This document shows, in pieces, positions 23,340 through 58,861 of a stretch of DNA of 64,000 nt. The notes under the pieces were generated by a model. It saw only the letters and a program-made list of their open reading frames with translations, did not search any database and had not been told where the DNA came from. The stretch is from Candidatus Poribacteria bacterium (GTDB taxonomy: Bacteria > Poribacteria > WGA-4E > WGA-3G), in NCBI GenBank assembly GCA_963664215.1, contig OY761015.1. One strand, written 5' to 3'. A program made the translations under genes and the position numbers. Every line of letters begins with the position of its first letter. The stretch's first letter is position 1.

Positions 23340-23374
23340 GCACGACGCCTTTGATTTAAGGAAGAAAGAAATAC

Positions 23375-27589: not shown

Positions 27590-27623
27590 TCTCATATGAC
27601 CATAGGATAACTAAAAGGCTGAT
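27584..27623. mobile_element. Orphan end of the two-gene element
   Basis: AAATAGTCTCATATGACCATAGGATAACTAAAAGGCTGAT aligns with element ends at 35268, 41291 and 54860. Confidence 0.75.
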
Positions 27624-27738
27624 CTGGACCCTCTCAGACATAGCACTGTTGCATTACAAAACGCCCCAGACGTAGGACCGAATTGAACGTTTCAGTCGAT
27701 GTCAACGTAGCCAAATCTTTTTGTGAGGAGGGGACTCT

Positions 27739-35273: not shown

Positions 35274-35371
35274 TATCATATGACCCTAGGATAGCTCGGA
35301 TGCTGATGTTTATTAGCTTCCCAGCGATCGCTGATGAGTGGAATGATGTGCTTGAAGGCACATTTGCCTCA

Positions 35372-35400
35372 AGTATAGCAATACGAATAGGGGGTGTCAA
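35372..35400 (-). promoter_or_regulatory. Outward-facing sigma70 promoter in element copy 1
   Basis: Minus strand TTGACA-17 nt-TATACT with extended -10 TG. Confidence 0.75.
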
Positions 35401-35408
35401 CCCTATTT

Positions 35409-36266: not shown

Positions 36267-37077
36267 CGCAGATCCCCCTTTTTTTCATCCACGGGTTCGG
36301 GGTGAAGCAGTTGGGTCATGCGATCGGTGTCTTGGTGTTCTTCATACAACGAGAGATACTCGCGAACGAGGCGATCCGAGAAGTGGGTGATCAGGCGTAT
36401 CTGTGCGCTCGGAAACCCTTGATGATGCAGCGTGGCGACTTGTGTAAAATCTCTGAGGTAGCGGTAGACGGCACGTTCGGAGTGGTTGGTCTTCTGCTGA
36501 ATCTCGGTGAAGGTGTAGTCCTTGAAATACAAATCGAGAATCTGCGTCTTATGAGACAGCCCCGGTCCCATGTCGTGCTTGGCGCCACGCGTCATGACGA
36601 AATACCCGTCGTGTTTCAAGGCTCGGATGTCGCGTTTGACGCTCGCAGGACTCGTGGTTAATAAGATGGCTAAATCTTCATAACTCAGCAAGGCGTCTTG
36701 GTCGTAAGCTTCTTGGGTCAACCGCAGGATCCGATGTCGCCTGAGACCTGCCAGTCCATAAGTGGCTAAGACTTCGAGGTCGACTTGCGTGTCATTGAGC
36801 GTCAGCCGACAGGAGACTTTCTTGGCTAAGGCGATGTGTTTCCCGGTTCCGGTTCTTCGGCAGCGACGGCCTCGTAGCAGATTTGCCCGGATGTGAGTTT
36901 GACATCAGCGTGTTGGGCAAAGTAGGTAGAAATCTGTTGATAGTAGGCTTCGGCGACGATAGGCATAAGATTGAAGTCTGCTGAAATCTTCTGAATAATC
37001 GCGGCTCTAGCATTCTTGGATTCGAGTCGGTTGATACCGTAAGCGGTATCGTTTTGGCGTGTCATAGTGACCTCCAT
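36263..37077 (-). pseudogene. Element ORF A (DUF1670-like), frameshifted near 36845
   Basis: Split into ORFs 36826-37122 and 36263-36721; 2 nt longer than copy 2 at this point. Confidence 0.75.
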
Positions 37078-37234
37078 GAAGGGAGTCTGGGTGATGTAAA
37101 TACATCTACCTGTTAGGTTCACTCATACTCTTAGTATAACTCATGGGGTCATATGATACAAACTATAAATAAGGTCGTACATCAAAAGATATTGCGAGCA
37201 CAACTCGCTCTTTCAAGAAGGAAAAAAGAGATAC

Positions 37235-40200: not shown

Positions 40201-41296
40201 TAACGGTTTTTGGGGGTTCAACCCTGAGGCGGAGTATACCGTGTTAAACCCGCGTCTCGGATACGTATTTTCCCAATCTATCATCGATGCCGGCGATACC
40301 TTCACGCTTGAAATTAGGGCAGAGGATATCTACAATTTAGCAGGATGGCAATTCGATATGACTTATGACGCCGCTCTGCTTGAAGCCGTTGAAGTCAACG
40401 AAGGCGATTTCCTGAAGACAGGGGACGGAGCGACCTTCTTCCAGAGAGGGACGATTGAGAATCGGTCGGGTAAGATTAAAGGGCTGAGTTCCGCACGACT
40501 CAGCGAAGACGGGGTTAGCGGCACTGGTACGTTGTTGTCAGTAACATTCACAGCGAAAACAGCTGGGCAAACGCGATTGAGACTCGATAACTTTCAACTC
40601 GCTGCTATCACCGGGAAGCCCATCGATGCAGGACCGCATGCGGTCGTCATTACTGTAAAGGGAGAACAGACGACCGGGGATGTAAATCGGGATGGTCAGG
40701 TAAGCATTCTGGATATGGTGCTTGTGGCTCGCCACCTTGGAAAAACCGTTCCCCCTAACTCGGATGTTGACCTAAATGGCGACGGAATTGTGAACATCTT
40801 GGATCTCATTCTTGTTTCCCAGAATATGGGCGGATCAAACGGCTTGGCTGCCCCGTCAATGCTATCTGTGGACAGTATGGAAGGATTGGATCCTGCGATA
40901 ATACAGGCATGGATAGCGCAGGCACAACTTGAAGATGACGGCTCTATCGTCTTCCAACAGGGCATCGCGAAACTTCAGGAACTTCTGCGATCGTTGATCC
41001 CGAAAGAGACGGTGTTGCTTGCGAACTATCCGAATCCGTTCAATCCAGAAACGTGGATACCGTATCAACTCTCGGAATCTGCGGAGGTCACCTTGCGGAT
41101 CTATGCTGTGAATGGTATCTTGGTTCGGACGTTGGCGTTGGGACAAATGCCCGCTGGCATTTATCAAAGCCGGAGCCGTGCGGCGTATTGGGATGGTAAA
41201 AATGCCGTAGGTGAACGCGTAGCGAGTGGTCTCTATTTCTACACACTCACAGCCGGTAATTTCACGGCAACGCGGAAGATGCTAATACGGAAATAG
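37235..41296 (+). CDS. Secreted cytochrome c/LRR/cohesin/dockerin/FlgD-type protein, paralog 3
   Basis: Same architecture; ends RKMLIRK. Confidence 0.9.
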   Translation: MKNFIKISLIFTVIFGYQTADAQQNLAQQAYAIFEQSCLNCHGEHGAFTEEIIIEHTALIETGAVVPGKPIESELYKRLLTDDDTKRMPLGQPRLPPAAILTIGNWIQAGAPDWQTRERDTGFITPKEMLESIEKHVNSLSPFDRTFARYFTLTHLYNAGETTEALHAYQRALSKLVNSLSWGREVIKPQAIDPEETIFYIDLRDYEWEIGTNRWTQIEQVYPYSIEFNAPKQTNLREKLTTLREVMECEVPFVHVDWFIATASLPPLYHDILGLPETDRELEDRLEVNVVENLRNAAGKRVWRAGFSDSGVSNHNRVVERHISRYGAYWKSYDFAGSVESQNIFTHPLSFTHDGGEIIFNLPNGLQAYYLADAGGRRLDAAPIQIVRNLAASDPTVRNGLSCIGCHTEGMKDFEDQVRGVAEKNPNPPFDKNRVLQLYTDTATMEALLVEDTDRYKQALEATGDVFGGIEPVLRFHEAFQRPVDAAYAAAVVGLETEVFLQKMRVSANLKGLGVLVLENGTMKRDTWTSKFSEIVFALDFPEAAISVDPQTERIPGASVYIPDPNLRAVIEENLGKTPNAPITVEEMATLERIFPEDKGISDLTGLEFATNLEWLKIESNQISDLSPLAGLTKLDLLDISANEISDLSPLTGLTNLRHIKVSHNNISDLSPLAGLPNLKRFDSWGNPVSNLLPLVELEVIDICGGEPDISTLEGAKNLKELYLLGGGISDVSPVAKLTGLTRLGVAGNPLSDISPLATLTGLKWLELSENKISDISPLVKLTNLKWLHIGGNMISDFSPLDGFSEDVTIINHTNPGFPKGGPKIEGPWLWVLVPEADIRSAVAGKLEHPNDDLLANLDVLAEASGGKVTELKVSTHGATEGNPVGNDVWYSGTISSTGRNNIETVLTPEVLAGPFVPGVIYGCVVLYSPRQQAVTLFAGNDGGGKAWLNGTLVHEKLQGARGVDYQHFVPVTLKEGVNVLLVATRTGGNGFWGFNPEAEYTVLNPRLGYVFSQSIIDAGDTFTLEIRAEDIYNLAGWQFDMTYDAALLEAVEVNEGDFLKTGDGATFFQRGTIENRSGKIKGLSSARLSEDGVSGTGTLLSVTFTAKTAGQTRLRLDNFQLAAITGKPIDAGPHAVVITVKGEQTTGDVNRDGQVSILDMVLVARHLGKTVPPNSDVDLNGDGIVNILDLILVSQNMGGSNGLAAPSMLSVDSMEGLDPAIIQAWIAQAQLEDDGSIVFQQGIAKLQELLRSLIPKETVLLANYPNPFNPETWIPYQLSESAEVTLRIYAVNGILVRTLALGQMPAGIYQSRSRAAYWDGKNAVGERVASGLYFYTLTAGNFTATRKMLIRK

Positions 41297-41397
41297 TGTC
41301 ATATGACCCTAGGATAGCTGGGAGGCTGATGTCCATTGGAAACCTCCCAGCGATCACTGATGAGTGGAATGATGTGCTTGAAGGCACATTTGCCTCA

Positions 41398-41426
41398 AGT
41401 ATAGCAATACGAATAGGGGGTGTCAA
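41398..41426 (-). promoter_or_regulatory. Outward-facing sigma70 promoter in element copy 2
   Basis: Minus strand TTGACA-17 nt-TATACT. Confidence 0.75.
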
Positions 41427-41434
41427 CCCTATTT

Positions 41435-42293
41435 TCAAGTCAACTGCTCCTGTTTTGCTAAGTTTGCATCGATGGTTTGGAGTTGATGCTGTGGAATCAG
41501 GTCAAGATATTGGGTGATAACGCGCTTAGAAAGTCGTGTAATCTGCGAGATTTGGTCAATATCGGCAGTCGCCGCACGAACGACTTTCACCGACTCATAA
41601 TCCCGAATGTATCGATCGACAGCCTCCTTGGAGTGCTTCATCTTGGCGGCGATAGTGGGGGTAAGATGTCCTTGAAGATAGAGCGTGATGATCTCTTTCT
41701 TGTGGGTAATCGCCCCCGATAAGTCATGGATATTGCCACGCGTGGGTAAGATGTCTCCGGTGGTTCTTTGCCATTCGTTGACATAGTCATTGACGACCTG
41801 ATCACAGACGTTGAGTAAGACTGCCAAGTCGAGTTGAGTCAACAAGGCACCTTGGTCATACGCTTGGTGACACCAGCGGACCAAACGATTGATTCTCAGT
41901 TGTCGGGAGGTCAATCCATTGCGAAAGGATTCGACATCTTCTGTAGCAACATAGGTGAGAATGATGGGTTTCATACGGGTCTTGATGATGGCTTTGCCTC
42001 TTTCGGGGTATTCATCAATCGGGACTGCCATCCAGACGAGTTGTCCATAGCGGAGGTATCGCTCCTCGGGCAGTTCATCTCCCATGGCGAGTTTTTCCAG
42101 AGGGAGGGTAATGACGAAATACTCCTCAACGGTCTTGAGAATATCCTCAACAATGGCAGTGGCAGTGACTTCGCCTTTGTCATAGTCCGTAGTCATTGAG
42201 AAAACGATGGATCAACAACTGTCGTAGAGACTTATCGTTGATGCGTCTGACTTTCTTCTCATTGATTTGCGTGCGCGTCAAAGGTTTGCTCAT
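41435..42293 (-). pseudogene. Element ORF B, frameshifted near 42185
   Basis: CATAGTCCGTAG versus CATACCCGTAG in copies 1 and 3 (1 nt longer). Confidence 0.75.
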
Positions 42294-43102
42294 CGGAGAT
42301 CCCCCTTTTTTTCATCCACGGGTTCGGAGTGAAGCAGTTGGGTCATGCGATCGGTGTCTTGGTATTCTTCATACAACGAGAGATACTCGCGAACGAGGCG
42401 ATCCGAGAAGTGGGTGATCAGGCGTATCTGTGCACTCGGAAACCCTTGATGATGCAGCGTGGCGACCTGTGTGAAGTCTCTGAGGTAGCGGTAGATGGCG
42501 CGTTCGGAGTGGTTGGTCTTTTGCTCGATTTCGCTGAAGGTATAGTCCTTGAAATACAACTCGAGAATCTGCGTCTTATGAGACAGTCCTGGACCCATGT
42601 CGTGCTTGGCGCCGCGCGTCATGACGAAATAGCCGTCGTGTTTCAAGGCGCGGATGTCGCGTTTGACGCTGGCAGGACTCGTGGTTAATAAGATCGCTAA
42701 ATCTTCATAACTCAGCAAGGCGTCTTGGTCATAAGCTTCTTTGGTGAGTCGGAGGATCCGATGGCGTCTGAGACCTGCCAGACCATAAGTCGCTAAGACT
42801 TCCAAATCATCTTCGACGGCATTGAGCGTCAGTCGACAGGAGACTTTTTTCGCTAAGGCGATATGTTTGCCTGCGGGTTCTTCAGCAGCGACCGCCTCAT
42901 AGCAGATTTGTCCTGAGGTGAGTTGAACGTCGGCGTGTTGAGCAAAGTAGGTAGAAATCTGTTTATAGTAGGCTTCGGCCACTATAGGCATAAGATTGAA
43001 GTCTGCTGAAATCTTCTGAATAATCGCCGCCCTAGCATTCTTGGATTCGAGTCGGTTGATACCGTAAGCGGCATCCTTCTGGCGTGTCATATTGACCTCC
43101 AT
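42290..43102 (-). CDS. Element ORF A (DUF1670-like), intact
   Basis: AYDQDALLSYEDLAILL, TRGAKHDMGPGLSHK, HSERAIYRY; ATGA overlap with ORF B. Confidence 0.8.
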   Translation of the reverse strand: MEVNMTRQKDAAYGINRLESKNARAAIIQKISADFNLMPIVAEAYYKQISTYFAQHADVQLTSGQICYEAVAAEEPAGKHIALAKKVSCRLTLNAVEDDLEVLATYGLAGLRRHRILRLTKEAYDQDALLSYEDLAILLTTSPASVKRDIRALKHDGYFVMTRGAKHDMGPGLSHKTQILELYFKDYTFSEIEQKTNHSERAIYRYLRDFTQVATLHHQGFPSAQIRLITHFSDRLVREYLSLYEEYQDTDRMTQLLHSEPVDEKKGDLR

Positions 43103-43225
43103 GAAGGGAGTCTCGGTGATGAAAATACATCTACCTGTTAGATGAACTCATACTATGAGTATAACTCATGGGGTCATATGATACAAACCTTAAATAGAAA
43201 GACATTGATACAGTAACAAAAAAGT

Positions 43226-49500: not shown

Positions 49501-50646
49501 GGAACAAATGTATTATTGGTTGCCGTCCACAACTCCGGTGGGGAATTTAATGGCTATTTTGGGTTTGAACCCGGCACAGAATATACGGTGGTATCCCCCG
49601 GGACTGGTTTCGCATTGTCGGCGGATACCACACGTGTTCGCGTCGGGGACACTTTTACCGTCCACGTCAACGCTGAAAAGGTTGCGGATTTAGCAGGATG
49701 GCAGTTTGATCTCACATTTGATTCTGATGTGCTTGAAGCGGTTGAAGTCAACGAGGGGAGTTTTCTGAAAAGAGGCGGTGGAACGACTTTCTTTCAGAAA
49801 GGCGCAGTTGATAACGCCATAGGTAAAATCACGGGGGTCAGTTCGGCACTAATCTCCAAAAACGGGGTCACCGGTGCCGGTAACCTCTTATCAGTGGTGT
49901 TCTCTGCAAAGGCAGAAGGGAACAGCCAAATGGCATTGCGCAACTTCCAACTCGGTTCTAATACGGGTGATATTATTCCTGCTGGCATGCGTGATCTTAC
50001 CATCACAGTGGGATCCCAACCGCTTTGGGATGTGAATGCGGATGGACAGGTCAGTATTTTGGATCTGATTCTTGTGGCACAGCACATGGGAGCCGCTGCG
50101 TCTGCTAACGCTAAAGTTGACGTAAACCGCGACGGAGTCGTCAGCATCTTAGACTTAATTCTTGTTGCACAGCACATGGGTGAATCAACGGGTCCAGCGT
50201 CGCCTTCGATTCTTGCTATGGATAGTATAGCCGGGTTGGATCCTGCGCTGATACAGGCCTGGATAGAGCGTGCGCGAGTTGAAGATGACGGTTCTCTCGC
50301 CTTCCGAGAGGGTATCGCTTACCTTCAGAGTCTTTTAGCCTTGCTAATTCCAGAGGAGACGGCGTTGCTGCCTAACTATCCGAATCCATTCAATCCGGAG
50401 ACGTGGATACCGTATCAGGTGTCAGAGCCTGCAGAAGTCACGTTGCGTATCTATTCTGTAAATGGGGTATTGGTTCGGACGTTGGCGTTGGGACAAACGC
50501 CTGCGGGTATCTATCAGAGCCGGAGTCGTGCGGCGTATTGGGATGGCAGAAATGACGTAGGTGAGTCCGTAGCGAGTGGAATCTATTTCTACACGTTCAC
50601 AGCGGGTGATTTCACAGCAACCCGCAAAATGTTGATACGGAAGTAA
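46573..50646 (+). CDS. Secreted cytochrome c/LRR/cohesin/dockerin/FlgD-type protein, paralog 4 (no element inserted)
   Basis: Same architecture; ends CGG AAG TAA. Confidence 0.9.
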   Translation: MTMKLKKKYIFPIVLALIILVPKSTDAQENLAQQTYAIFEQNCLNCHGEHGAFTENIIIEHTALIETGAVVPGKPIESELYKRLLIDDETKRMPLGQPKLPPAAILTIGNWIQAGAPDWQMPEQDTDFITPTEMLETIEKHVNSLAPFDRAFTRYFTMTHLYNAGESAEALHAYQRALSKLVNSLSWGREVIKPQPIDLQETIFYIDLRDYEWEIGVNRWTLVEQVYPYRIEFDAPTQTGLREKLTGLREQMECEVPFVHVDWFLATASLPPLYHDILDLPETDRELETRLEVNVVENIRNAAGRRVWRAGFNNSGVSSHNRVVERHISRYGAYWKSYDFAGSVESQNIFTHPLSFTHDGGENIFNLPNGLQAYYLADAGGNRLDAAPIKIVRNPAASDPTVRNGLSCIGCHTEGMKAFEDQVRGVVEGNANPPFNKDRALRLYVEKAEMDAFLEEDTARYRQALEKTGDVFGGIEPVQRFYEAFQRPLDVPHAAAAVGLETVDLLQKVRENASLKNLGLGVLTGASGSVKRDTWTSNFSEIVTVLSFPDSNIVKPVVPRTERIPGESVHIPDANLRAAIAETLGKTPGTAITAEDMATLMYLDTHEMDIQSLEGLQFATNLEELGLHDSPISDLSPLSGLVTLKEIRLSGKSFSDLSPLAGLINLEGVGFWKTSVADLSPLSGLTKLRWLEFGNSRVSDLSPLAGLTSLKRLEIYAGKDLDLLPLKELTNLVKLKANSSGVLDVSPLSGLINLESLDLEAGRISDISPLASLKNLKELKLQRNRISDVSPLAGLHNLEKLQLHWNKISDFSPLDGLRENTKISWFGNPGFPQGGPKIEGPWLWVLVPGTGFWDGVDLLSQASDGAVTELGIATRGATEETPVGENVWTSHKIAPAGEDNIGTMLTAMGMKENDDTKNVIYGSLTLYSPREQQTQLFAGSYIVHKVWLNGEFVHENLNWWVWAREYQDYAPVTLKRGTNVLLVAVHNSGGEFNGYFGFEPGTEYTVVSPGTGFALSADTTRVRVGDTFTVHVNAEKVADLAGWQFDLTFDSDVLEAVEVNEGSFLKRGGGTTFFQKGAVDNAIGKITGVSSALISKNGVTGAGNLLSVVFSAKAEGNSQMALRNFQLGSNTGDIIPAGMRDLTITVGSQPLWDVNADGQVSILDLILVAQHMGAAASANAKVDVNRDGVVSILDLILVAQHMGESTGPASPSILAMDSIAGLDPALIQAWIERARVEDDGSLAFREGIAYLQSLLALLIPEETALLPNYPNPFNPETWIPYQVSEPAEVTLRIYSVNGVLVRTLALGQTPAGIYQSRSRAAYWDGRNDVGESVASGIYFYTFTAGDFTATRKMLIRK

Positions 50647-50725: not shown

Positions 50726-53700
50726 GTGAACGATCAGAAAATTTTCATTGCCTTTATTTGCTTATTGATGCTTCTCTTGGGTTATCAAAACGTTGATGCC
50801 CAAGGAAATCTCGCGCAGCAAGCGTATGCGATTTTTGAACAAAGTTGTCTGAACTGCCATGGAGAACACGGGGCATTTACTGAAAATATCATCATTGAAC
50901 ACGCGGCGCTCATCGAAACGGGGGCGGTTGTCCCGGGGAAGCCTATTGAATCCGAACTCTATAAGCGGCTCCTCATAGACGATGAAACCAAACGAATGCC
51001 ACTGGGTCAACCGCGACTGCCTCCCGCCGCAATTCTGACCATCGGCAACTGGATTCAAGCGGGTGCACCGGATTGGACGGACACCTCCGAAGCGGATGGT
51101 CCCTTCATCACTCCGACGAAAATGCTTGAAACGATTGAGAAACACGTCAACGCATTGGCATCCTTCGACCGCGCCTTCGCCCGCTATTTTACGATGACGC
51201 ATCTCTATAACGCTGGTGAGAGTGCGGAGGCACTCCACGCCTATCGACGGGCACTCTCGAAACTCGTGAATAGTCTCTCTTGGGGGCGCGAGGTCATCAA
51301 ACCGCAACCCATTGATCTCCAAGAAACAATCTTCTATATCGATCTCCGGGACTACGAATGGGAGATCGGAACTAACCGATGGACCCAGATTGAGCAGGTA
51401 TATCCCTACAAGATTGGGTTTGAGGCTCCAACACAGACGCATCTGCGTGAAAAACTGCAAACTTTACGCCAAGAAATGAACTGTGAAGTGCCGTTTGTTC
51501 ATGTGGATTGGTTTCTTGCGACTGCCTCCTTACCACCTCTCTACCACGACATTCTGGATCTGCCAAAAACCGACCGGGAGTTAGAGACACGCCTTGAGGT
51601 GAATGTCGTCGAAAATATTCGCAATGCCGCGGGCAGACGCGTCTGGCGTGCAGGGTTCAACGATTCCGGTGTTTCAAACCATAACCGTGTTGTCGAACGG
51701 CACACCTCTCGGTATGGGGCGTACTGGAAAAGTTACGACTTTGCTGGCAGTGTGGGGACGCAGAATATCTTTACGCATCCGTTGTCTTTCACACATGATG
51801 GCGGTGAGATTATCTTCAATTTACCCAATGGATTGCAGGCGTACTATTTGGTGGATGCTGGTGGCAACCGACTTGATGCGGCACCGATAAAAATTGTTTC
51901 AAATCCCGCTGCGAGTGATCCAACTGTCCGCAATGGACTCTCCTGCATCGGATGTCACACGGAGGGGATGAAGGTGTTTGAAGATGAGGTGCGGGGTGTT
52001 GTTGAACAGAATGCGAATCCCCCGTTCAATAAAGCGCGTGCGTTGCGGCTCTATACGGAGCAAGCGACGATGGAAACACTTGTAAATGAAGATACGGATC
52101 GTTATAGACGGGCACTTGAAGCGGCAGGCGATGTCTTCGGGGGCATTGAACCGGTTCAGCGATTCCACGAGGCGTTCCAAGGTCCCATAGATGCGGCACA
52201 TGCCGCAGCAGCGGTAGGTTTGGAAACAGCGGACTTTCTGGGAAAAATTCGCGAGAATGCAAGTCTGAGAAACTTAGGTTTAGGGGTGTTGACGGGTAAG
52301 AGCGGCAGCGTGAAGAGGGATACGTGGACATCGAATTTCAGTGGAGTCGTTACGACGCTGGGTTCTCCTGACAGCAGGGCAATTAAGCCGATTGTTCCCC
52401 AGACGGAACGTATTCCAGGGGCTTCTGTTTATATTCCCGACGCGAACCTTCGCGAGGTAATTGAAGATGCACTTGACAAGACACCGGGTGATGTAATAAC
52501 AGCGGAAGACATGAAGACCTTGGTGGACCTTAGGGGAGTGGGGCGAGGGATTCGTGATTTGACAGGACTGGAAACCGCAACAGATCTGGAGGAGTTGTAT
52601 CTTCAGAACAACCCGATCTCCGACATATCACCGCTTGCGGGCTTAGTTAAACTCAAGGAAATAAATCTGAGGAATAGTTCTCTTTCCGATTTATCTCCGC
52701 TCTCGGAACTGATACTGCTGAAAGAGGTGCGGTTTTCGGGCGAGTCGATAGTCGATCTGTCGCCCCTCGCAGGTTTAACTAACTTAGAGGGTGTAGGGGC
52801 TTGGAGCACCTCCATATCAGATGCTTCGCCGCTCTCAGGATTAACAAAACTCAGGTGGTTAGAGTTACAAGGATCCCCAATATCAGATTTCTCACCATTC
52901 TCAGGACTCACAAATTTGAGAAGATTGGAAATGTATGCCGCCAAGACATCTGATCTTTCACCTTTAAAAGGATTGACGAGTTTGAAAATTCTGTCAATTG
53001 GTAACAGCCAAATATCAGACGTTTTCCCACTCGCAGGACTGATTAATTTGGAAGGACTCGGACTGTTCGCGAATCGGCATATATCAGACATCTCGCCGCT
53101 TGCCTCTTTGAAGAACCTCAAAGTGTTAGACCTAACTACCAACCAGATATCGGATGTATCACCGCTTGCAGGTTTGCGAAACTTGGAAGAGGTGCACCTT
53201 CAGCGGAACAACATAACAGATATCTCGCCTTTGGATGGGTTACATGAGAATATACAACTCGCTTGGTACAGCAACCCGGGTTTCCCTCAGGGCGGTCCGA
53301 AAATAAAGGGACCTTGGTTATGGATGTTTGTACCAGGCGTCGGTTTTCATGAGAAAATGGATTATCTTTCACATGCAAGTGAGGGTACTGTAACAGAATC
53401 GGAGGTTGCTACCTATGGAGCAATAGAGGGAAGTCTAGTCGGAGAACACGTGTGGACTTCACACAAAATTGCCTCCGCCTCTGCGGATAGACCTGACATC
53501 AACGTAACGCTCAGTGATATTGGTATATCGAAAGATCATAGAAGAGATGATGTCGTCTACGGTTCCCTGATCTTGAATTCACCGCGTGAACAGAAGACAA
53601 CGATGTTTGCTGGAAGTAATCATAACCACAAGGTCTGGCTCAATGGGGAGTTCGTTCACGAAAACCTGATTGGCTGGGCAGCAGATTATCAAGATTACTT

Positions 53701-54865
53701 TCCAGTCACGCTGAAGCAAGGGATAAATATATTATGCGTCGCGGTTGAGTTCAATGGTAATGAATGGGGTGCCCATTTTGGGTTTGCCCCTGACACACAA
53801 TATACAGTCGTATTCCCAGGGACCGGCTTCGCATTTTCGGCGGATACCACACGTATTCGCGTCGGTGATACGGTCACACTCCGTATCGATGCGGAGAAAG
53901 TCACGGATTTAGCGGGCTGGCAGTTCGATCTCACATTTAATCCTGATGTACTTGAAGCGGTTGAAGTCAACGAAGGCGGTTTTCTGAAGAAAGGTGATGG
54001 AAACACGTTCTTTCAGCGCGGAACAATTGATAACACTGGGGGTAAAATTGTGGGATTAAGTTCGGCGCTGATCTCCAAAAACGGGGTCACCGGTACCGGT
54101 AACCTCTTGTCAGTGGTGTTCTCTGCGAAGGCAGAAGGGAACAGCCAGGTGGCATTACGCAACTTCCAACTCGGTTCTAATACGGGTGATGTGATTCCTG
54201 CTGGCATGCGCGATCTTACCATCACGGTTGGATCTCAACCGCTTTGGGATGTGAATGTGGATGGACAGGTCAGTATTTTGGATCTGATTCTTGTGGCACA
54301 GCACATGGGATCCGTCGCATCTGCCACCTCTAAAGTTGACGTAAACCGCGACGGAGTCGTCAGTATCTTGGACTTAATTCTCGTGGCGCAGCACATGGGT
54401 GAATCAACGGGTCCAGCGTCGCCTTCGATGCTTGCCATGGATAGCATAGACGGGTTGGATCCTGCGATGATACAAGCATGGATAGCGCGTGCGCACGTTG
54501 AAGATGATGGCTCTGTCGCCTTCCGAGAGGGTATCGCTTACCTTCAGAGTCTTTTAGTCTTGCTGACTCCAGAAGAGACAGCACTGCTTCCAAACTATCC
54601 GAATCCATTCAACCCAGAGACGTGGATACCGTATCATTTAGCGAAACCCAGTAATGTGCGGATTACCATCTATGACGCACGCGGTGCTTTGGTACGCCAA
54701 TTGGATCTCGGGCATCAACGTGAAGGCTACTACACGAGTCGGAGTCGTGCGGCGTATTGGGATGGCAGAAACGCCGTCGGCGAACGCGTTGCCAGTGGTG
54801 TCTATTTCTACCAATTGCAGGCGGATCATCTGTCGCTCCTGCGCAAGATGCTCATTTTGAAATAG
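50726..54865 (+). CDS. Secreted cytochrome c/LRR/cohesin/dockerin/FlgD-type protein, paralog 5
   Basis: Same architecture; ends RKMLILK. Confidence 0.9.
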   Translation: MNDQKIFIAFICLLMLLLGYQNVDAQGNLAQQAYAIFEQSCLNCHGEHGAFTENIIIEHAALIETGAVVPGKPIESELYKRLLIDDETKRMPLGQPRLPPAAILTIGNWIQAGAPDWTDTSEADGPFITPTKMLETIEKHVNALASFDRAFARYFTMTHLYNAGESAEALHAYRRALSKLVNSLSWGREVIKPQPIDLQETIFYIDLRDYEWEIGTNRWTQIEQVYPYKIGFEAPTQTHLREKLQTLRQEMNCEVPFVHVDWFLATASLPPLYHDILDLPKTDRELETRLEVNVVENIRNAAGRRVWRAGFNDSGVSNHNRVVERHTSRYGAYWKSYDFAGSVGTQNIFTHPLSFTHDGGEIIFNLPNGLQAYYLVDAGGNRLDAAPIKIVSNPAASDPTVRNGLSCIGCHTEGMKVFEDEVRGVVEQNANPPFNKARALRLYTEQATMETLVNEDTDRYRRALEAAGDVFGGIEPVQRFHEAFQGPIDAAHAAAAVGLETADFLGKIRENASLRNLGLGVLTGKSGSVKRDTWTSNFSGVVTTLGSPDSRAIKPIVPQTERIPGASVYIPDANLREVIEDALDKTPGDVITAEDMKTLVDLRGVGRGIRDLTGLETATDLEELYLQNNPISDISPLAGLVKLKEINLRNSSLSDLSPLSELILLKEVRFSGESIVDLSPLAGLTNLEGVGAWSTSISDASPLSGLTKLRWLELQGSPISDFSPFSGLTNLRRLEMYAAKTSDLSPLKGLTSLKILSIGNSQISDVFPLAGLINLEGLGLFANRHISDISPLASLKNLKVLDLTTNQISDVSPLAGLRNLEEVHLQRNNITDISPLDGLHENIQLAWYSNPGFPQGGPKIKGPWLWMFVPGVGFHEKMDYLSHASEGTVTESEVATYGAIEGSLVGEHVWTSHKIASASADRPDINVTLSDIGISKDHRRDDVVYGSLILNSPREQKTTMFAGSNHNHKVWLNGEFVHENLIGWAADYQDYFPVTLKQGINILCVAVEFNGNEWGAHFGFAPDTQYTVVFPGTGFAFSADTTRIRVGDTVTLRIDAEKVTDLAGWQFDLTFNPDVLEAVEVNEGGFLKKGDGNTFFQRGTIDNTGGKIVGLSSALISKNGVTGTGNLLSVVFSAKAEGNSQVALRNFQLGSNTGDVIPAGMRDLTITVGSQPLWDVNVDGQVSILDLILVAQHMGSVASATSKVDVNRDGVVSILDLILVAQHMGESTGPASPSMLAMDSIDGLDPAMIQAWIARAHVEDDGSVAFREGIAYLQSLLVLLTPEETALLPNYPNPFNPETWIPYHLAKPSNVRITIYDARGALVRQLDLGHQREGYYTSRSRAAYWDGRNAVGERVASGVYFYQLQADHLSLLRKMLILK

Positions 54866-54967
54866 TCTCATATGACCCTAGGAGTGCTGGGAGGCTGATG
54901 TCCATTGGAAACCTCCCAGCGATCACTGATGAGTGGAAATGATGTGCTTGAAGGCACATTTGCTTGA

Positions 54968-54996
54968 AGTATAACAATACGGGTAAGGGGTGTCAA
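54968..54996 (-). promoter_or_regulatory. Outward-facing sigma70 promoter in element copy 3
   Basis: Minus strand TTGACA-17 nt-TATACT; boxes conserved while the spacer differs from copies 1 and 2. Confidence 0.78.
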
Positions 54997-55004
54997 CCCT
55001 ATTT

Positions 55005-55862
55005 TCAACAGATCTGCTCCTTTTTTACTAAGTTTTCATCCATGGTTTGGAGTTGATCCTCTGGAATGAGGTCGAGATATTGAGTAATAACGCGTTTAGA
55101 AAGTCGTGTAATCTGTGAGATTTCGTCAATATCTGCGGTAGCTCTGCGAACGACTTTGACGGACTCATAATCCCGAATGTATCGATCAACCGCCTCCTTG
55201 GAGTGCTTCATCTTGGCAGCAATAGTCGGAGTAAGATATCCTTGAAGATAGAGGGTGATGATCTCTTTCTTGTGGGTAATCGCCCCCGATAAGTCATGAA
55301 TATTGCCGCGCGTGGGTAAGATTTCTCCAGTGGTTTTCTGCCACTCATTGACATAATCACAGACGACCTGATCACAGACGTTGAGCAAGACGGCCAAGTC
55401 AAGTTGTGTCAATAAGGCGCCTTGATCATAAGCTTGATGACACCAGCGAACCATGCGTTTCATCCGGAGTTGTCTGGAAGTAAACCCGTCGCGAAACGAT
55501 TCGACATCTTCTGCGGCGACATAGGTGAGAATGATGGGTTTCATACGGGTTTTGATGATCGCTTTACCTTTTTCAGGGTATTCATCAATCGGGACTGCCA
55601 TCCAGACGAGCTGTCCATAGCGGAGGTATCGCTCTTCGGGAAGTTCGTCGCCTTTGGCGAGTTTCTCCAGAGGCAGGGCAATGACGAAATACTGCTCAAC
55701 GGTCTTGAGGATATCATCAACAATAGCCGTCGCTGTGACTTCGCCTTTGTCATACCCGTAGTCATTGAGAAAGCGGTGGATCAGCAACTGTCGTAGCGAT
55801 TTATCGTTGATGCGTCTGACTTTCTTCTCGTTGACTTGCGTGCGCGTTGAGGGTTTACTCAT
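55005..55862 (-). CDS. Element ORF B (DUF1670-like)
   Basis: Homolog of 35409-36266; start MSKP at 55862. Confidence 0.82.
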   Translation of the reverse strand: MSKPSTRTQVNEKKVRRINDKSLRQLLIHRFLNDYGYDKGEVTATAIVDDILKTVEQYFVIALPLEKLAKGDELPEERYLRYGQLVWMAVPIDEYPEKGKAIIKTRMKPIILTYVAAEDVESFRDGFTSRQLRMKRMVRWCHQAYDQGALLTQLDLAVLLNVCDQVVCDYVNEWQKTTGEILPTRGNIHDLSGAITHKKEIITLYLQGYLTPTIAAKMKHSKEAVDRYIRDYESVKVVRRATADIDEISQITRLSKRVITQYLDLIPEDQLQTMDENLVKKEQIC

Positions 55863-56670
55863 CGGAGATCCCCTTTTTTTCATTCATGGGTTCGGGGTGA
55901 AGCAGCTGGGTCATGCGATCGGTGTGTTGGTATTGCTTATACAGCGAGAGATATTCGCGAATCAACCGGTCCGAGAAGCGAGTGATCAGGCGTATCTGTC
56001 CCTTGGGAAAGTCTTGATGATGCAACGTAGCAACTTGTGTGAAATCTCTCAAGTACCGCCAGACGGCGCGTTCGGAGTGGTTGGTCTTTTGCTCAATCTC
56101 GGTGAAGGTGTAGTCCTTGAAATACAAATCGAGAATCTGCGTCTTGTGAGATAGACCGGGTCCCATGTCGTGTTTCGTCCCGCGTGTCATCACGAAATAC
56201 CCGTCCTGCTTCAACGCTCGGATGTCGCGTTTGACGCTGGCAGGACTCGTGGTTAATAAGATGGCTAAATCTTCATAACTCAGCAAGGCGTCTTGGTCAT
56301 AAGCCTCTTTGGTCAATCGCAGGATCCGATGGCGTCTGAGACCGGGTAGACCATAATCAGCTAAGACTTCGAAGTCCTCTGTGACATCATTGAGCGTCAG
56401 ACAGCAGGAAACTTTCCTCGCAAGAGCGATGTGTTTGCCTGCGGGTTCCTCAGCAGCGACGGCCTCGTAGCAGATCTGTCCTGAGGAGAGTTGAATGTCG
56501 GCATGTTCCTGAAAATAGCCAGCAATCTGTTTATAGTAGGCTTCGGCCATGATCGGCATCAAATTGAAGTCTGCTGAAATCTTCTGAATAATCGCCGATC
56601 TGGCATTCTTAGATTCGAGACGTTTGATGCCATAGACCGCATCCTTTTTGCGTGTCATAAGGACCTCCGT
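55855..56670 (-). CDS. Element ORF A (DUF1670-like)
   Basis: Homolog of 42290-43102; start uncertain (MTRKK at 56658 or upstream). Confidence 0.8.
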   Translation of the reverse strand, partial: TEVLMTRKKDAVYGIKRLESKNARSAIIQKISADFNLMPIMAEAYYKQIAGYFQEHADIQLSSGQICYEAVAAEEPAGKHIALARKVSCCLTLNDVTEDFEVLADYGLPGLRRHRILRLTKEAYDQDALLSYEDLAILLTTSPASVKRDIRALKQDGYFVMTRGTKHDMGPGLSHKTQILDLYFKDYTFTEIEQKTNHSERAVWRYLRDFTQVATLHHQDFPKGQIRLITRFSDRLIREYLSLYKQYQHTDRMTQLLHPEPMNEKKGISDE

Positions 56671-56794
56671 GAAATCCGTCTGGGTGATGCAAATACATCT
56701 ACCTGTTAGCATAACTCATAGTTAGCATAACTATCAGTATAACTCATGGGGTCATATGAGACAAACTATAAGTAGATAAGAAAGGAACTACAAC

Positions 56795-58861
56795 ATGGAA
56801 CCACAAAGAAGGAAAATTTTCATGAAAAACAGGCTATTTTTGATTGCTTTCATACTATTTGGGGTTTCCACCTTTTTTTCAGCAAACACGTTCGCACAAG
56901 ACCACACACAATGGAGTTTACCTGAAGGGGCCAAAGCACGCTTGGGTAAAGGACATATAACCCAGATTGCGTATTCTCCGGATGGGACGCGTCTGGCGGT
57001 TGCGAGTTCTATCGGTATTTGGGTATACGATACAGCGACGGGTGAAGCACTTGATCTGATTACAGGGCATACAGGTTGGGTTATGAGCATGTCGTTTAGT
57101 TCAGATGGCACAACGCTTGCCAGCGGGGGTGAGGACGGCACCGTCCGTTTATGGGATATAGAGACGGGACGCCACCTCCGCACGCTTGAAGGGCATACAA
57201 GATGGGTTATGAGCGTATCGTTTAGTCCAGATGGTATCACTCTCACGAGCGGGAGTCCTTCAGAAATCTGTTTATGGGATGTAGAGACGGGGAGACAGCT
57301 CCGCACGCTTGAAGGACGCGGCGGTTGGGTTATGAGTGTGTCATTGAGCCTTGATGGTAGTATTGTTGCTAGGGGTGAGGTGGATGCCAATGTCCGTTTA
57401 TGGAGTGTAGAGACGGGGCGTCACATCCACACGCTTGAAGGACATACAGATTGGGTTATGAGCATGTCGTTTAGTCCAGACGGCACCACTCTCGCCAGCG
57501 GGAGTTCGGACAGCACGGTACTGTGGGATGTAGCCACGGGTAGGCAGCTCCGCACGCTTGAAGGGGATGCGGGTTCTATTTGGTATTTTAGCATGTCGTT
57601 TAGCCCGGATGGCACAACGCTTGCCAGCGGGGGCGAGGACGGCACTATCCGTCTATGGGATGTAGCAACAGGGCATCACCTCCGCACGCTTGAAAGACAT
57701 ACATGGGATGTCAATAGCGTATCGTTTAGCCCGGATGGCACGACGCTTGCCAGCGGGAGTTTGGATGGCACTGTCCGTTTATGGGATGTAGCAACCGGAC
57801 GTCACCTCCGCACGCTTGAAGGACATACAGATTGGGTTCAGAGCGTGGCGTTTAGCCCGGATGGTAGCATGGGTGCCAGCGGAATTGAGGATGGCACCGT
57901 TCGTTTATGGGATATAGAAACCGGACGTCTCATCCGCACGCTTGAGGGGCATATATGGCCCCTCTATAGCATGTCCTTTAGTCCGGATAGCACTATACTC
58001 GTAGGTGGGAGTTCGGATGCTACCGTCCGTCTATGGAATGTAGCCACGGGGAGGCAACTCCAGGTACTTGAAGGACATACGTGGCATGTCTACAGCGTAT
58101 CGCTTAGTCCGGATGGCACGACGCTTGCCAGTGGGAGTGGGGACGAGACCGTCCGTTTATGGGATGTAGAGACGGGACGCCACCTCCGCACGCTTGAAAG
58201 ACATACATGGGATGTCAATAGTGTATCGTTTAGCCCGGATAGTACTAAACTCGCCAGTGGGAGTTCGGACTTTACCGTCCGTCTATGGGATGTAGCCACG
58301 GGTAGGCAACTCCAGAGACTTGAAGGGCATATGGGGACGGTCTATACCGTGTCGTTTAGTCCAGATGGCATTACACTCGCTAGTGGGAGTTCGGACGCTA
58401 CTGCCCGTCTGTGGGATGTAGCAACAGGGAGTCCCATCCGCACGTTTGAAGGGCATACGGATCATGTTGAGAGCATATCATTTAGTCCAGATGGTAGCAC
58501 GCTCGCCAGTGGGAGTTCGGATGCTACCATCCGTCTATGGGATGTAGCCACGGGGAGGCAGGTCCGCACGTTTGAAGGACATACGGATGATGTTGAGAGT
58601 GTGTCGTTTAGTCCAGATGGTAGCACGCTCGCCAGTTGGAGTGAGGACGGCACGGTGCTGCTGTGGGAACTTACCTCACCCAAACCTCCACAACGTCCTG
58701 AAGATATTAACGGCGACGGATTGGTCAACATCCAAGACCTTGTCTTCGTCGCAGCACACCTCGGTCAGACAGCACCAAACACCGCAGATGTCAATGGTGA
58801 TGGGGTCGTCAACATTCAAGACTTAGTTCAGATCGCTGGGGCACTCGGCAAACCCCAGTGA
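56795..58861 (+). CDS. Secreted WD40-repeat protein with C-terminal dockerin
   Basis: About 14 GH...SFSPDGTTLASG...VRLWD repeats; DINGDG/DVNGDG pair. Confidence 0.92.
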   Translation: MEPQRRKIFMKNRLFLIAFILFGVSTFFSANTFAQDHTQWSLPEGAKARLGKGHITQIAYSPDGTRLAVASSIGIWVYDTATGEALDLITGHTGWVMSMSFSSDGTTLASGGEDGTVRLWDIETGRHLRTLEGHTRWVMSVSFSPDGITLTSGSPSEICLWDVETGRQLRTLEGRGGWVMSVSLSLDGSIVARGEVDANVRLWSVETGRHIHTLEGHTDWVMSMSFSPDGTTLASGSSDSTVLWDVATGRQLRTLEGDAGSIWYFSMSFSPDGTTLASGGEDGTIRLWDVATGHHLRTLERHTWDVNSVSFSPDGTTLASGSLDGTVRLWDVATGRHLRTLEGHTDWVQSVAFSPDGSMGASGIEDGTVRLWDIETGRLIRTLEGHIWPLYSMSFSPDSTILVGGSSDATVRLWNVATGRQLQVLEGHTWHVYSVSLSPDGTTLASGSGDETVRLWDVETGRHLRTLERHTWDVNSVSFSPDSTKLASGSSDFTVRLWDVATGRQLQRLEGHMGTVYTVSFSPDGITLASGSSDATARLWDVATGSPIRTFEGHTDHVESISFSPDGSTLASGSSDATIRLWDVATGRQVRTFEGHTDDVESVSFSPDGSTLASWSEDGTVLLWELTSPKPPQRPEDINGDGLVNIQDLVFVAAHLGQTAPNTADVNGDGVVNIQDLVQIAGALGKPQ

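What the first reader, a model, noticed from the sequence alone, without database searches (positions are those of the whole stretch)
54847..56797. Insertion targets the Lys-stop of FlgD-tailed genes and rebuilds it
Seen: all left junctions read G-AAATAG (Lys-stop of ...LIxK*). Exactly 10 nt beyond the right TCATATGA each copy has a second Lys-stop hexamer that varies: AAATAA (37167), AAATAG (43192), AAGTAG (56770). Inference: these are the hosts' original gene ends, displaced by a crossover in a shared ~2-nt AA core, while the element supplies ATAG so the protein is unchanged. Supporting context: the reconstructed empty site of copy 3 puts the WD40 ATG 19 nt after the stop, and that of copy 2 puts a terminator ~30 nt after it. 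Paralog 4 (AAGTAA at 50641-50646) is an unoccupied site. Lys-stops of the sigma genes are not hit. The target varies mainly at codon wobble positions, so a conserved multicopy secretion-tail sequence seems to serve as a safe harbour.
Basis: partly seen in the sequence, partly recalled or inferred. Interest (0 to 1): 0.88.

Follow-up and report, generated by a model that had tools for sequence, protein, structure and literature searches.

The report
Mobile element that completes genes' last codon
A 1.9-kb jumping element carrying two uncharacterised DNA-binding genes inserts exactly inside the last codon of secretion-tail genes and itself supplies the missing base and a new stop codon, so the host protein is left unchanged.

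Summary
The element is 1908 bp, has 14-bp inverted ends around TCATATGA and carries two paralogous DUF1670 genes. All 12 full copies in this Poribacteria genome follow a T9SS-type tail gene. The left junction reads AAATAG wherever it was found: 14 of 14 occupied sites here and 74 of 75 in other genomes. The right hexamer varies, as unoccupied gene ends do, and includes AAGTGA.

Precise empty alleles exist. Contigs of three public runs join 54859 to 56770, giving ...TTG AAG TAG ATAAG... as predicted. Orthologous empty sites occur in seven related genomes over two loci. None keeps the palindrome.

Element copies are 83-100% alike, their host tails only 50-74%, so these are independent insertions.

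Distant DUF1670 elements (about 33% protein identity) obey the same rule at Lys or Arg last codons. Host NN (AA, CG or AG) is followed by the element's A-TAR, and the original codon and stop are displaced to the right.

A 2-bp crossover core and a 2-bp target duplication cannot be told apart. No known recombinase domain was found. I found no description in print.

The parts
50726..54865 (+). Host gene (paralog 5, 1379 aa): LRR/cohesin/dockerin protein with a T9SS type A sorting / FlgD_ig C-terminal tail ending ...LLRKMLILK*
   Evidence: ORF list. Pfam FlgD_ig 40.3 bits (cut-off 27) and Por_Secre_tail 29.3. NCBIfam TIGR04183 31.2 bits (cut-off 23).
54860..54865 (+). Rebuilt Lys-stop AAATAG: AA (54860-61) from the host, ATAG (54862-65) from the element
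   Evidence: Sequence. The empty-allele joint 54859->56770 has 2 ambiguous letters.
54862..56769 (.). Element copy 3 (1908 bp, ATAG...CTAT), flanked by AA on both sides. It is 99.95-100% identical to the copy at G000:C2:164300.
54865..54878 (+). Left 14-bp inverted repeat GTCTCATATGACCC (palindrome TCATATGA at 54868-54875)
   Evidence: Sequence. The same repeat is present in all copies.
55005..55883 (-). ORF A, DUF1670 protein (292 aa as the longest frame, P0001)
   Evidence: Pfam PF07900 E 1.3e-63. It is 35% identical to ORF B.
55855..56658 (-). ORF B, DUF1670 protein (266 aa from MTRKKD; the longest frame runs to 56712, P0002)
   Evidence: Pfam PF07900 E 2.4e-59. Most homologues are 266 aa. 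AF2 model pLDDT 90.1.
56749..56769 (+). Right end: 14-bp inverted repeat GGGTCATATGAGAC (56749-56762) followed by 7 further element bases AAACTAT (56763-56769)
   Evidence: Sequence. These bases are constant in 12 of 12 copies up to CTAT, with 2 variable positions in copy 2.
56770..56775 (+). Displaced original Lys-stop AAGTAG of the host gene
   Evidence: It is contiguous with ...TTG in the empty alleles.
35270..37166 (.). Element copy 1 (ORF B broken). Rebuilt AAATAG at 35268-35273; original AAATAA at 37167-37172.
41293..43191 (.). Element copy 2 (both ORFs shortened). Rebuilt AAATAG at 41291-41296; original AAATAG at 43192-43197.
   Evidence: Orthologous empty sites in 5 genomes.
27586..27626 (+). 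Solo left-end remnant (ATAGTCTCATATGACCATAGGATAACT...GGCTGAT) behind paralog 0, whose Lys-stop AAATAG is at 27584-27589
   Evidence: Sequence. Repeat family D13. Listed as occupied.
50641..50646 (+). Unoccupied target: AAGTAA end of paralog 4
   Evidence: C2:3143845.

Best explanation
This is an autonomous, site-specific, IS-like mobile element of a family that I found described nowhere.

Shown. The element is 1908 bp. It has 14-bp inverted repeats built around a CATATG palindrome and carries only two genes, both DUF1670 multi-helix-turn-helix proteins. It inserts after the second base of the last sense codon of genes that end in a T9SS-type C-terminal sorting tail. The two bases stand on both sides of the element. 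Its tail-proximal end begins A-TAG, which completes the codon (AA+A = Lys) and gives a new stop. The host's old 'last codon + stop' is pushed 1.9 kb downstream, and the protein is unchanged. Insertions are independent and polymorphic between strains.

Shown for the wider family. Distant DUF1670 elements do the same at Lys or Arg last codons: AA, CG or AG followed by A-TAA or A-TAG.

Inferred. The two DUF1670 proteins act together as a heteromer that binds the CATATG palindromes and the degenerate tail-coding DNA (roughly CG.AA.ATG.T.AT....AA). They themselves carry out a reaction with a 2-bp stagger. That reaction is either a cut-and-fill target duplication or a conservative exchange in a 2-bp core. 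The multicopy, selectively constrained tail serves as a harmless landing site.
For: Copy number and place. There are 12 full copies plus remnants. All 12 lie behind tail genes; three of them have a group II intron lodged in the left end.

Junction rule. Left AAATAG is seen at 14 of 14 sites here and at 74 of the 75 left junctions found in 80 loci of other genomes. Of those loci, 62 have tail-like flanks. The right hexamers at the tail-like sites are AAGTAA 25, AAATAG 12, AAGTAG 9, AAATAA 6, AAGTGA 5 and AAATCG 1.

Empty alleles..

Independence of insertions. Elements are 83-100% identical, host tails 50-74%. Three copies that are about 100% identical sit behind tails that are 51-62% alike.

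Family-wide rule. Of 79 distant loci, 31 have a tail ORF end, always in the same orientation, and 30 of these abut the element. In 15 of 17 complete cases the left dinucleotide equals that of the displaced codon, for example CGT TAG -> CGA TAA and AGG TGA -> AGA TAA. Of 9 distant tails tested, 8 pass the TIGR04183 cut-off. All 8 ORFs tested are DUF1670.

Only two genes. Natural fusions of the two exist. Homologues lie mostly on contigs of about 2 kb, as collapsed repeats do. Both ORFs are intact in 7 of 12 copies. The element is patchy among relatives: 6 of 24 genomes of the genus.
Against: No catalytic domain of any known transposase or recombinase class was found. Pfam gives only DUF1670 and HTH families. 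NCBIfam gives nothing meaningful. There is no PDB relative by sequence. Fold searches match only wHTH/HTH domains, with best Z 6.8, and residues 1-100 were barely tested. So the enzyme is inferred by elimination.

No circle or tandem junction was seen. The empty alleles may therefore be ancestral rather than excisions.

Exceptions to the rule. L119 has left CG against a displaced AGGTGA, and L180 is odd. Four Poribacteria loci lie at non-tail sites (L045, L049, L065, L093). One lineage uses a hairpin repeat instead: 8 loci, and G035.

The last ~54 nt of orthologous tails differ between the occupied and the empty genomes, so some tail exchange among paralogs goes on beside transposition.
Confidence: 0.8

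Rival explanations
1. The element is moved by a host-encoded recombinase acting on the CATATG-centred ends, in the way that IMEX elements use XerCD. The DUF1670 proteins would be only DNA-binding targeting or regulatory factors.
For: The ORF B model is a string of wHTH/HTH domains with no recognised catalytic fold. Pfam shows HTH families only.
Against: The same two-gene unit with the same junction rule recurs in very different hosts: Poribacteria, Calditrichota, a Bacteroides-labelled MAG, and soil, sediment and lake metagenomes. A trans-acting host enzyme would have to be shared by all of them. Strictly conserved polar residues (R159 invariant; D95, R114, D130, H171, H194, Y202 and Y236 in at least 90% of 75 sequences) are more than plain DNA binding needs. 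No co-occurring enzyme was looked for.
Confidence: 0.2
2. Mechanistic variant. Conservative site-specific recombination in a fixed 2-bp core shared by element and target (serine-recombinase logic), through a circular intermediate, rather than a 2-bp target-site duplication.
For: AA stands on both sides in 12 of 12 copies. The joined ends would read CTAT-AA-ATAG, a near-palindrome around AA. The empty alleles are precise. Among distant elements the dinucleotide partly follows element lineage: the L119/L124/L129/L132 group is all CG on the left.
Against: Across the family the dinucleotide is AA, CG or AG and equals the target's own in 15 of 17 cases. The closest pair with different dinucleotides (L177 AG, L179 CG) is 82% identical. 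There is no resolvase domain and no circle junction. The data do not decide between the two variants.
Confidence: 0.4
3. The copies spread with their host genes by segmental duplication or gene conversion among paralogous tails, not by transposition.
For: Five tandem paralogs lie in the window, three with the element and one with a remnant. Tail ends look exchanged between orthologues.
Against: The elements are much more alike (83-100%) than the last 400 nt of their host genes (50-74%). The right flanks are unique. Precise empty alleles exist in near-identical strains. The same rule holds in unrelated genomes.
Confidence: 0.03
4. Target choice is guided by an RNA encoded in the element's non-coding ends, as in the seeker/bridge RNA of IS110/IS1111.
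For: There is a ~140-nt structured non-coding left end. Two sister lineages have different targets (tail versus hairpin repeat).
Against: No consistent match of 8 nt or more between element non-coding ends and targets was found in 6 elements of both lineages. The targeted tails vary at many positions. No DEDD transposase is present.
Confidence: 0.05

Closest known systems
Tn7 with TnsD at attTn7 (glmS) [recalled, not tested here]
   Same: The element uses the conserved 3' coding end of a gene as its recognition sequence and inserts where the gene product is not harmed, that is, at a safe harbour. Orientation is fixed.
   Different: Tn7 inserts downstream of the stop, makes a 5-bp duplication, has one site per genome and needs TnsABC+D. 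Here the insertion lies inside the last codon, the duplication or core is 2 bp, the target is a multicopy domain-coding sequence (62 tail ORFs), and the element has only two DUF1670 genes.
Prophages and integrative elements that integrate into the 3' end of a gene and bring a replacement 3' end (tRNA genes; phage 21/e14 at icd) [recalled]
   Same: The element carries the sequence that restores the interrupted gene end, and the old end is displaced to the far junction.
   Different: Those elements use tyrosine integrases and tens of bases of attP/attB identity. Here only A+stop (4 nt) is supplied, no integrase domain was found, and the element is a 1.9-kb IS-like unit.
Serine-recombinase transposons IS607 and Tn4451/TnpX [recalled]
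   Same: A 2-bp dinucleotide stands at both junctions, and the empty sites are precise.
   Different: No resolvase domain (PF00239) hit was found at E<=0.1. The dinucleotide varies with the target across the family. This element has strong target specificity, unlike IS607.
Insertion sequences that target multicopy repeats: IS1397/ISKpn1 in REP loops [recalled]; IS110/IS1111 with seeker RNA (bioRxiv 10.1101/2024.04.26.591405, search listing and abstract only)
   Same: The element exploits a conserved multicopy sequence. The sister lineage in genus g3 inserts in the loop of a hairpin repeat present 35-70 times per genome.
   Different: Those are DDE or DEDD enzymes. Here there is no such domain and no guide-like complementarity.
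IStrons and group II introns as 'harmless insertion' strategies (IStron paper PMC4227781: listing and abstract only)
   Same: The insertion is made phenotypically silent.
   Different: Those are silent because the RNA is spliced. Here the insertion is silent at the DNA level, because the codon is completed and a stop is supplied.

Membership tests
Pfam DUF1670 (PF07900) | Match above the gathering score (25 bits) | tested here: met
   ORF A 214.8 bits and ORF B 200.8 bits. 26 matches in the genome.
T9SS type A sorting domain (TIGR04183) / FlgD_ig, for the host tails | C-terminal domain match above cut-off | tested here: met
   Window tail: TIGR04183 31.2 bits (cut-off 23) and FlgD_ig 40.3 (cut-off 27). 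Of 9 distant tails, 8 are above the cut-off; L145 scores 21.1. Whether Poribacteria have a T9SS was not tested. PMC3909097 (passages seen) reports that structural Por genes were not found.
Classical insertion sequence (IS) | Terminal inverted repeats, short flanking direct repeat, multicopy, only mobility genes | tested here: met
   14-bp inverted repeats, AA on both sides, 12 copies, two ORFs.
DDE transposases | RNase H-like fold with a DDE triad | tested here: inconclusive
   No Pfam DDE family at E<=0.1. The model has only 2 long strands, and fold hits are wHTH/HTH only. Residues 1-100 were not searched alone. ORF A was not modelled.
Serine recombinases (IS607, Tn4451, large serine integrases) | Resolvase catalytic domain with a Ser nucleophile | tested here: inconclusive
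   No PF00239 hit and no such fold among the listed matches.
Serine recombinases (IS607, Tn4451, large serine integrases) | Identical 2-bp crossover core in donor and target | tested here: inconclusive
   AA/AA in all copies here. Family-wide the dinucleotide is AA, CG or AG and follows the target. The closest pair with different dinucleotides is only 82% alike.
Tyrosine recombinases / integrases | Phage_integrase catalytic domain (R-K-H-R-H/W-Y) | tested here: inconclusive
   No PF00589 hit and no such fold listed. A loose resemblance of HS..SI.RY to box II is my own reading, not a test.
IS110/IS1111 (DEDD transposase plus seeker/bridge RNA) | DEDD transposase and a non-coding RNA complementary to the target | tested here: inconclusive
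   No DEDD family hit. No consistent match of 8 nt or more between element ends and targets in 6 elements.
Tn7-like transposons | TnsA/B/C plus a TnsD/TniQ target selector | tested here: not met
   The element has room for, and contains, only two ORFs, both DUF1670.
Group II intron (the insert in three copies) | Domain V/VI match, 5' GUGCG | tested here: met
   RF00029 65.6 bits (gathering 40) in L001. The sequence runs GTGCGG...CACTAC, 737 nt.

The most novel reading that the evidence does not exclude
DUF1670 protein pairs are a new class of DNA transposase or recombinase with no relation to the DDE, DEDD, HUH, serine, tyrosine or Cas1 enzymes. They would be built from helix-turn-helix modules. 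Their elements have evolved, across several phyla, a 'codon-completing' end (A + stop). This lets them colonise the last codon of T9SS-type secretion-tail genes without changing any protein.
Probability: 0.5. Interest if true: 0.92.

Novelty: new variant of a known kind. Interest (0 to 1): 0.86.

Why it matters
It gives a function, DNA mobility, to a widespread domain of unknown function. The family has 1170 representative clusters at E<=1e-3 and is found in many bacterial phyla and in archaea.

It shows a so far undescribed way for a transposon to be harmless: it inserts inside the last codon and supplies the wobble base and the stop.

It makes a possible new recombinase chemistry directly testable, with a defined donor (14-bp ends), a defined target (about 20 bp of tail-coding DNA) and a short list of conserved residues.

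It also bears on the evolution of the large families of eukaryote-like repeat proteins with sorting tails in sponge symbionts. A compact enzyme with a readable 20-bp target would interest genome engineers as well.

Tried and rejected
- Segmental duplication was rejected on the identity matrix.
- The idea that three copies sit at an unrelated site was rejected. The different left flank is a 737-nt group II intron lodged in the left end, with a tail gene just upstream.
- Guide RNA: no consistent complementarity.
- Circle or tandem junction: none among the joints listed for four runs of contigs (87 further joints were not shown, and contigs cannot show rare forms). None in 65 genomes of the genus with a junction pattern. 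None in the stored loci.
- A single-sequence AF2 model was useless (pLDDT 40). The model made with an alignment was good.
- Foldseek against the PDB gave no match at E<=0.001. VIA wide gave only HTH-type matches with Z<=6.8.
- The complex of ORF A with ORF B scored 0.33 (median of 3 runs) against a best control of 0.00. This is 'weak support': the mark was reached by 58 of 80 solved complexes and 2 of 110 mismatched pairs, but at 0.60 or under by only 7 of the 80. My own alignments were used, the partner pLDDT was at least 73, and the runs agreed in at least 85% of contacts. I do not count it as evidence beyond the natural fusions.
- tblastn against plasmids: no match.
- MAGs of other phyla hold single copies only, on short contigs.
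- Literature: 'DUF1670' 0 papers and 'PF07900' 0 papers. The searches 'Poribacteria + transposase + insertion sequence', 'type IX secretion / C-terminal domain / insertion sequence / target site / stop codon', 'TIGR04183 + transposase' and 'insertion sequence / last codon / stop codon / target site duplication / site-specific' gave nothing on such an element. ISfinder and paper supplements could not be consulted.
- Not done: the empty allele of copy 1; a search for a co-occurring host recombinase; RNA evidence.

Full report
**What is in the window.**
At 54860-56775 a host gene (50726-54865, 1379 aa) ends ...TTG AAA TAG. It has LRR, cohesin and dockerin domains and a C-terminal tail that matches FlgD_ig, Por_Secre_tail and TIGR04183. 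It is followed at once by TCTCATATGACCC. About 1.9 kb further on stands GGGGTCATATGAGAC AAACTAT, and then AAG TAG ATAAG.... The two ends form a 14-bp inverted repeat (GTCTCATATGACCC / GGGTCATATGAGAC). The outermost bases are ATAG and CTAT, and AA stands outside both.

Between the ends lie two overlapping minus-strand ORFs, 55005-55883 and 55855-56712. The latter probably starts at 56658. Both are Pfam DUF1670 at E about 1e-60, and they are 35% identical to each other. Copies 1 (35270-37166) and 2 (41293-43191) have the same anatomy.

**Genome-wide.**
The window lies at G000:C2:3093203-3157202 in a 5.69-Mb genome. Titles of close relatives name Candidatus Poribacteria. blastn finds 12 full-length copies at 84-100% identity, plus short remnants.

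- Nine copies have the left junction (G/A)AAATAG-T-N-TCATATGACC directly behind a tail gene.
- The other three share a different left flank. That flank is a 737-nt ORF-less group II intron (GTGCGG...CACTAC; Rfam RF00029 65.6 bits) lodged between AAATAGTAT and CATATGACC. A tail gene ending ...RKMVILK*...RKMLIRK* or ...RRMVILK* lies just upstream.
- So 12 of 12 copies sit at the Lys-stop of a tail gene.
- Two of the three remnants do as well (window 27586-27626 and L004). The third (L003) is an internally deleted, decayed copy.

A jackhmmer search with the tail finds 62 tail ORFs. Fourteen are occupied, and all of these read AAATAG on the left. The unoccupied ends read AAATAA 10, AAGTAG 9, AAATAG 9, AAGTAA 6 and AARTGA 4, and the rest end in Arg or other codons.

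All 12 right junctions read ...TGA-N-ACAAAC(T/C)(A/T)T followed by AAR-TAR: AAATAG 4, AAGTAA 4, AAGTAG 3, AAATAA 1. Nearly identical elements carry different right hexamers. Copy 3 has AAGTAG and its 100% twin at C2:164300 has AAATAG. The three copies at 1499045, 3764816 and 5013145, which are about 100% identical, have AAGTAA, AAATAG and AAGTAA. The right hexamer therefore belongs to the site, not to the element.

For scale, the genome has 9,962 AARTAR hexamers, and 475 of 11,638 ORFs of at least 100 aa end in AAR-TAR.

**Independent insertions.**
The elements are 83-100% identical to one another. The last 400 nt of their host genes are only 50-74% identical. Window copies 1 and 2 are 93% alike, their hosts 74%. 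The right flanks are unique. Segmental duplication does not explain the pattern. Both ORFs are full length in 7 of 12 copies. In the window, copy 3 is intact, copy 1 has a broken ORF B, and copy 2 has shortened ORFs.

**Empty alleles.**
Only Logan contigs were available. Laid on 53800-57800, three runs from three studies show one joint, 54859 -> 56770, described as 'skips 1910, ends AA..AT, both = 2'.
- In X6 a single 4095-nt contig covers 53800-54859 and 56770-57188, with one mismatch on each side.
- X3 has 69 letters and X1 has 29 letters on the shorter side.

The two ambiguous letters are the AA.

In related genomes the orthologous site is empty in G004 and G057 (...AATTCGG AAGTAG ATAAGAAAG...) and occupied in G055. 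The locus of copy 2 is empty in G055, G062, G068, G006 and G024, where the tail is followed by AAGTAG or AAGTAA, the flank and the terminator hairpin. It is occupied in G057 and G018. No empty site carries TCATATGA.

One caveat. The last ~54 nt of the orthologous tails differ between genomes (HLSLLRKMLILK type against DFTATRKMLIRK type). Tails therefore also seem to be exchanged among paralogs.

**Other genomes.**
PF07900 pairs occur in 6 of 24 genomes of the genus and in 4 of 16 from other genera of the order. Eighty loci were fetched with ORF B. Most are from Poribacteria; there are also 3 Calditrichota MAGs and one Bacteroides-labelled MAG.
- A left junction was found in 75 loci: 74 read AAATAG and 1 reads AGATAG.
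- A right junction was found in 74 loci.
- 62 left flanks encode a tail-like ...[RK][KR]M[LV]I.K*.
- At those sites the right hexamers are AAGTAA 25, AAATAG 12, AAGTAG 9, AAATAA 6, AAGTGA 5 and AAATCG 1.

A TGA stop on the right against only TAG on the left shows directly that the stop is replaced.

Twelve loci are not at tails. Eight of them, all from one genome (as also in G035), lie in the loop of a hairpin repeat, GAAACCGAGTTTTG(AA/CG)G-AA|AAAACTCGGTTTC. This repeat is present 70, 35 and 42 times in three genomes and not at all in G000. The other four are L045, L049, L065 and L093. At L092 the right flank is AAATAG followed by a decayed left end, so the element re-inserted at a rebuilt site.

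**The rule is family-wide.**
I took a representative that is only 33% identical to ORF B (P0187) and fetched 79 metagenome loci. Most are contigs of about 2 kb.
- 31 loci have a tail-like ORF end, all in the same orientation, and 30 of these abut the element.
- Of 9 tails tested, 8 pass the TIGR04183 cut-off.
- All 8 ORFs tested are DUF1670.
- The junction reads NN|A-TA(A/G)-[GT]G.CA[TA][AT]TG..., with NN = AA, CG, AG or, once, CA.
- In 19 loci the right end was found as well. It is the inverted repeat, 7 further bases, and then the host's old last codon and stop: for example CGATGA, CGTTAG, AGGTGA, AAGTGA, AAATGA, AGATGA.
- In 15 of 17 complete cases the left dinucleotide equals that of the displaced codon. 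L119 (CG against AGGTGA) and L180 are exceptions.

Thus CGT TAG becomes CGA TAA, AGG TGA becomes AGA TAA, and AAG TAG becomes AAA TAA. The element gives the wobble base and the stop, and the residue stays Lys or Arg.

Because all these elements are at most 84% alike, I cannot say whether the dinucleotide is a duplication of the target or a lineage-specific core.

In these lineages the genes run in the same direction as the host gene. In the Poribacteria lineage they converge on it. In both, the end next to the host gene is the short one (3-4 nt outside the repeat) and the far end has 7 nt.

In the window's lineage both termini read ATAG when read inwards, so either orientation would give a stop. 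Yet only one orientation is seen. Orientation is therefore set by recognition of the target, not only by selection. That last step is an inference.

**The proteins.**
ORF B has 798 close homologues in the word search, mostly on contigs of about 2 kb. Their names are 'hypothetical', 'DUF1670' or 'biotin operon repressor'. At 50% clustering there are 1170 representatives at E<=1e-3. These include fused forms with two units (500-550 aa) and three units (about 930-950 aa). L056 carries a 564-aa fusion.

In an alignment of 75 sequences R159 is invariant. G74, D95, R114, A119, Q122, D130, T141, G160, G166, H171, H194, Y202, F206 and Y236 are at least 90% conserved.

The AF2 model made with this alignment has pLDDT 90.1 and pTM 0.65. 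It shows an N-terminal helical part with a beta hairpin (residues 1-100), a winged helix (101-166) and two further HTH units (169-255). Foldseek finds nothing at E<=0.001. VIA-align finds only HTH proteins: TrpR with Z 6.8, rmsd 2.8, 59 aligned, and NiaR with Z 6.4.

No transposase or recombinase family appears in Pfam at E<=0.1 or in NCBIfam. The PDB has no sequence relative. The Atlas neighbours are all DUF1670 clusters from many phyla. The A+B complex prediction gives weak support only: 0.33 against a best control of 0.00.

**How it most likely works.**
Shown: the anatomy, the target, the rebuilt codon, the polymorphism and the independence of the insertions.

Inferred:
- The A/B heteromer binds the CATATG palindromes at both ends and a degenerate 20-bp motif of tail-coding DNA. 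The consensus of occupied sites is CG.AA.ATG.T.AT....AA. The hairpin target shares G-19, A-17, A-16, T-10, T-7, G-3 and AA with it, by my own comparison.
- The heteromer cuts with a 2-bp stagger after the second base of the last codon.
- Selection has kept the A-TAR end because it makes insertions neutral.

Whether the DUF1670 proteins are the catalysts (my estimate about 0.6) or recruit another enzyme stays open.

**Comparison and novelty.**
In strategy the element resembles Tn7/TnsD at glmS, prophages that bring a replacement 3' end, and REP-targeting IS elements. In its junction geometry it resembles IS607/Tn4451. All four comparisons are recalled, not tested. It meets the formal criteria of an IS but none of the tested criteria of a known transposase class.

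Six literature searches found no description. Supplements and ISfinder were not available. One paper notes that many poribacterial eukaryote-like repeat proteins carry TIGR04183 tails, while Por structural genes were not found (PMC3909097, passages seen).

**Verdict.**

Noticed in passing
L001 (G000:C2:2384544-2385280); also C2:418549-419285, 2562371-2563106, 170370-171825, 3690515-3691173: An ORF-less 737-nt group II intron sits at AAATAGTAT|CATATGACC in three element copies. The three introns are 99.9-100% identical, while their host elements are only 90-92% alike. The intron therefore seems to have homed three times into the element-host junction. It also lies 3 nt behind a tail gene that has no element.
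   Followed up: partly
window 27586-27626: A solo left-end remnant of the element lies behind a fifth paralog (23358-27589). The rest of the element is gone, and a sigma-70-like gene follows.
   Followed up: partly
window 56795-56822 versus L019, L020, L021: Relatives have about 810 nt more between ATGGAACCAC... and the WD40 gene. The window seems to carry a deletion that fuses the start of a small ORF to the WD40 upstream region. The 'ATG 19 nt after the stop' may therefore not be the WD40 start; ATGAAAAAC at 56823 looks like a signal-peptide start.
   Followed up: no
window 54806-54859 versus L019/L021; L197-L202: Orthologous tail genes differ sharply in their last ~54 nt (HLSLLRKMLILK type against DFTATRKMLIRK type), although the rest is 78% alike. 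Tail ends seem to be exchanged among paralogs.
   Followed up: no
G035, G026, G086 (L203-L205): The hairpin repeat AACCGAGTTTT-N6-AAAACTCGGTT occurs 70, 35 and 42 times, partly in arrays about 193-216 nt apart, and is absent from G000. It is the target of a sister lineage of the element.
   Followed up: partly
P0134, P0159, P0204; L056:2489-4180: Natural fusions of two or three DUF1670 units occur in one protein (500-950 aa).
   Followed up: partly
L092: The right flank of an element is AAATAG followed by a decayed left end. The rebuilt Lys-stop was itself used again as a target.
   Followed up: no
L116-L194 versus window: The gene cassette runs in the same direction as the host gene in the distant lineages but converges on it in the Poribacteria lineage. 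The short-end/long-end geometry relative to the host gene is kept in both.
   Followed up: no
window 23358-54865: Five tandem paralogs of about 1350-1400 aa (LRR, cohesin, dockerin and PSCyt1 domains plus a sorting tail), 62-95% identical in parts, are interspersed with ECF-sigma-like genes.
   Followed up: no
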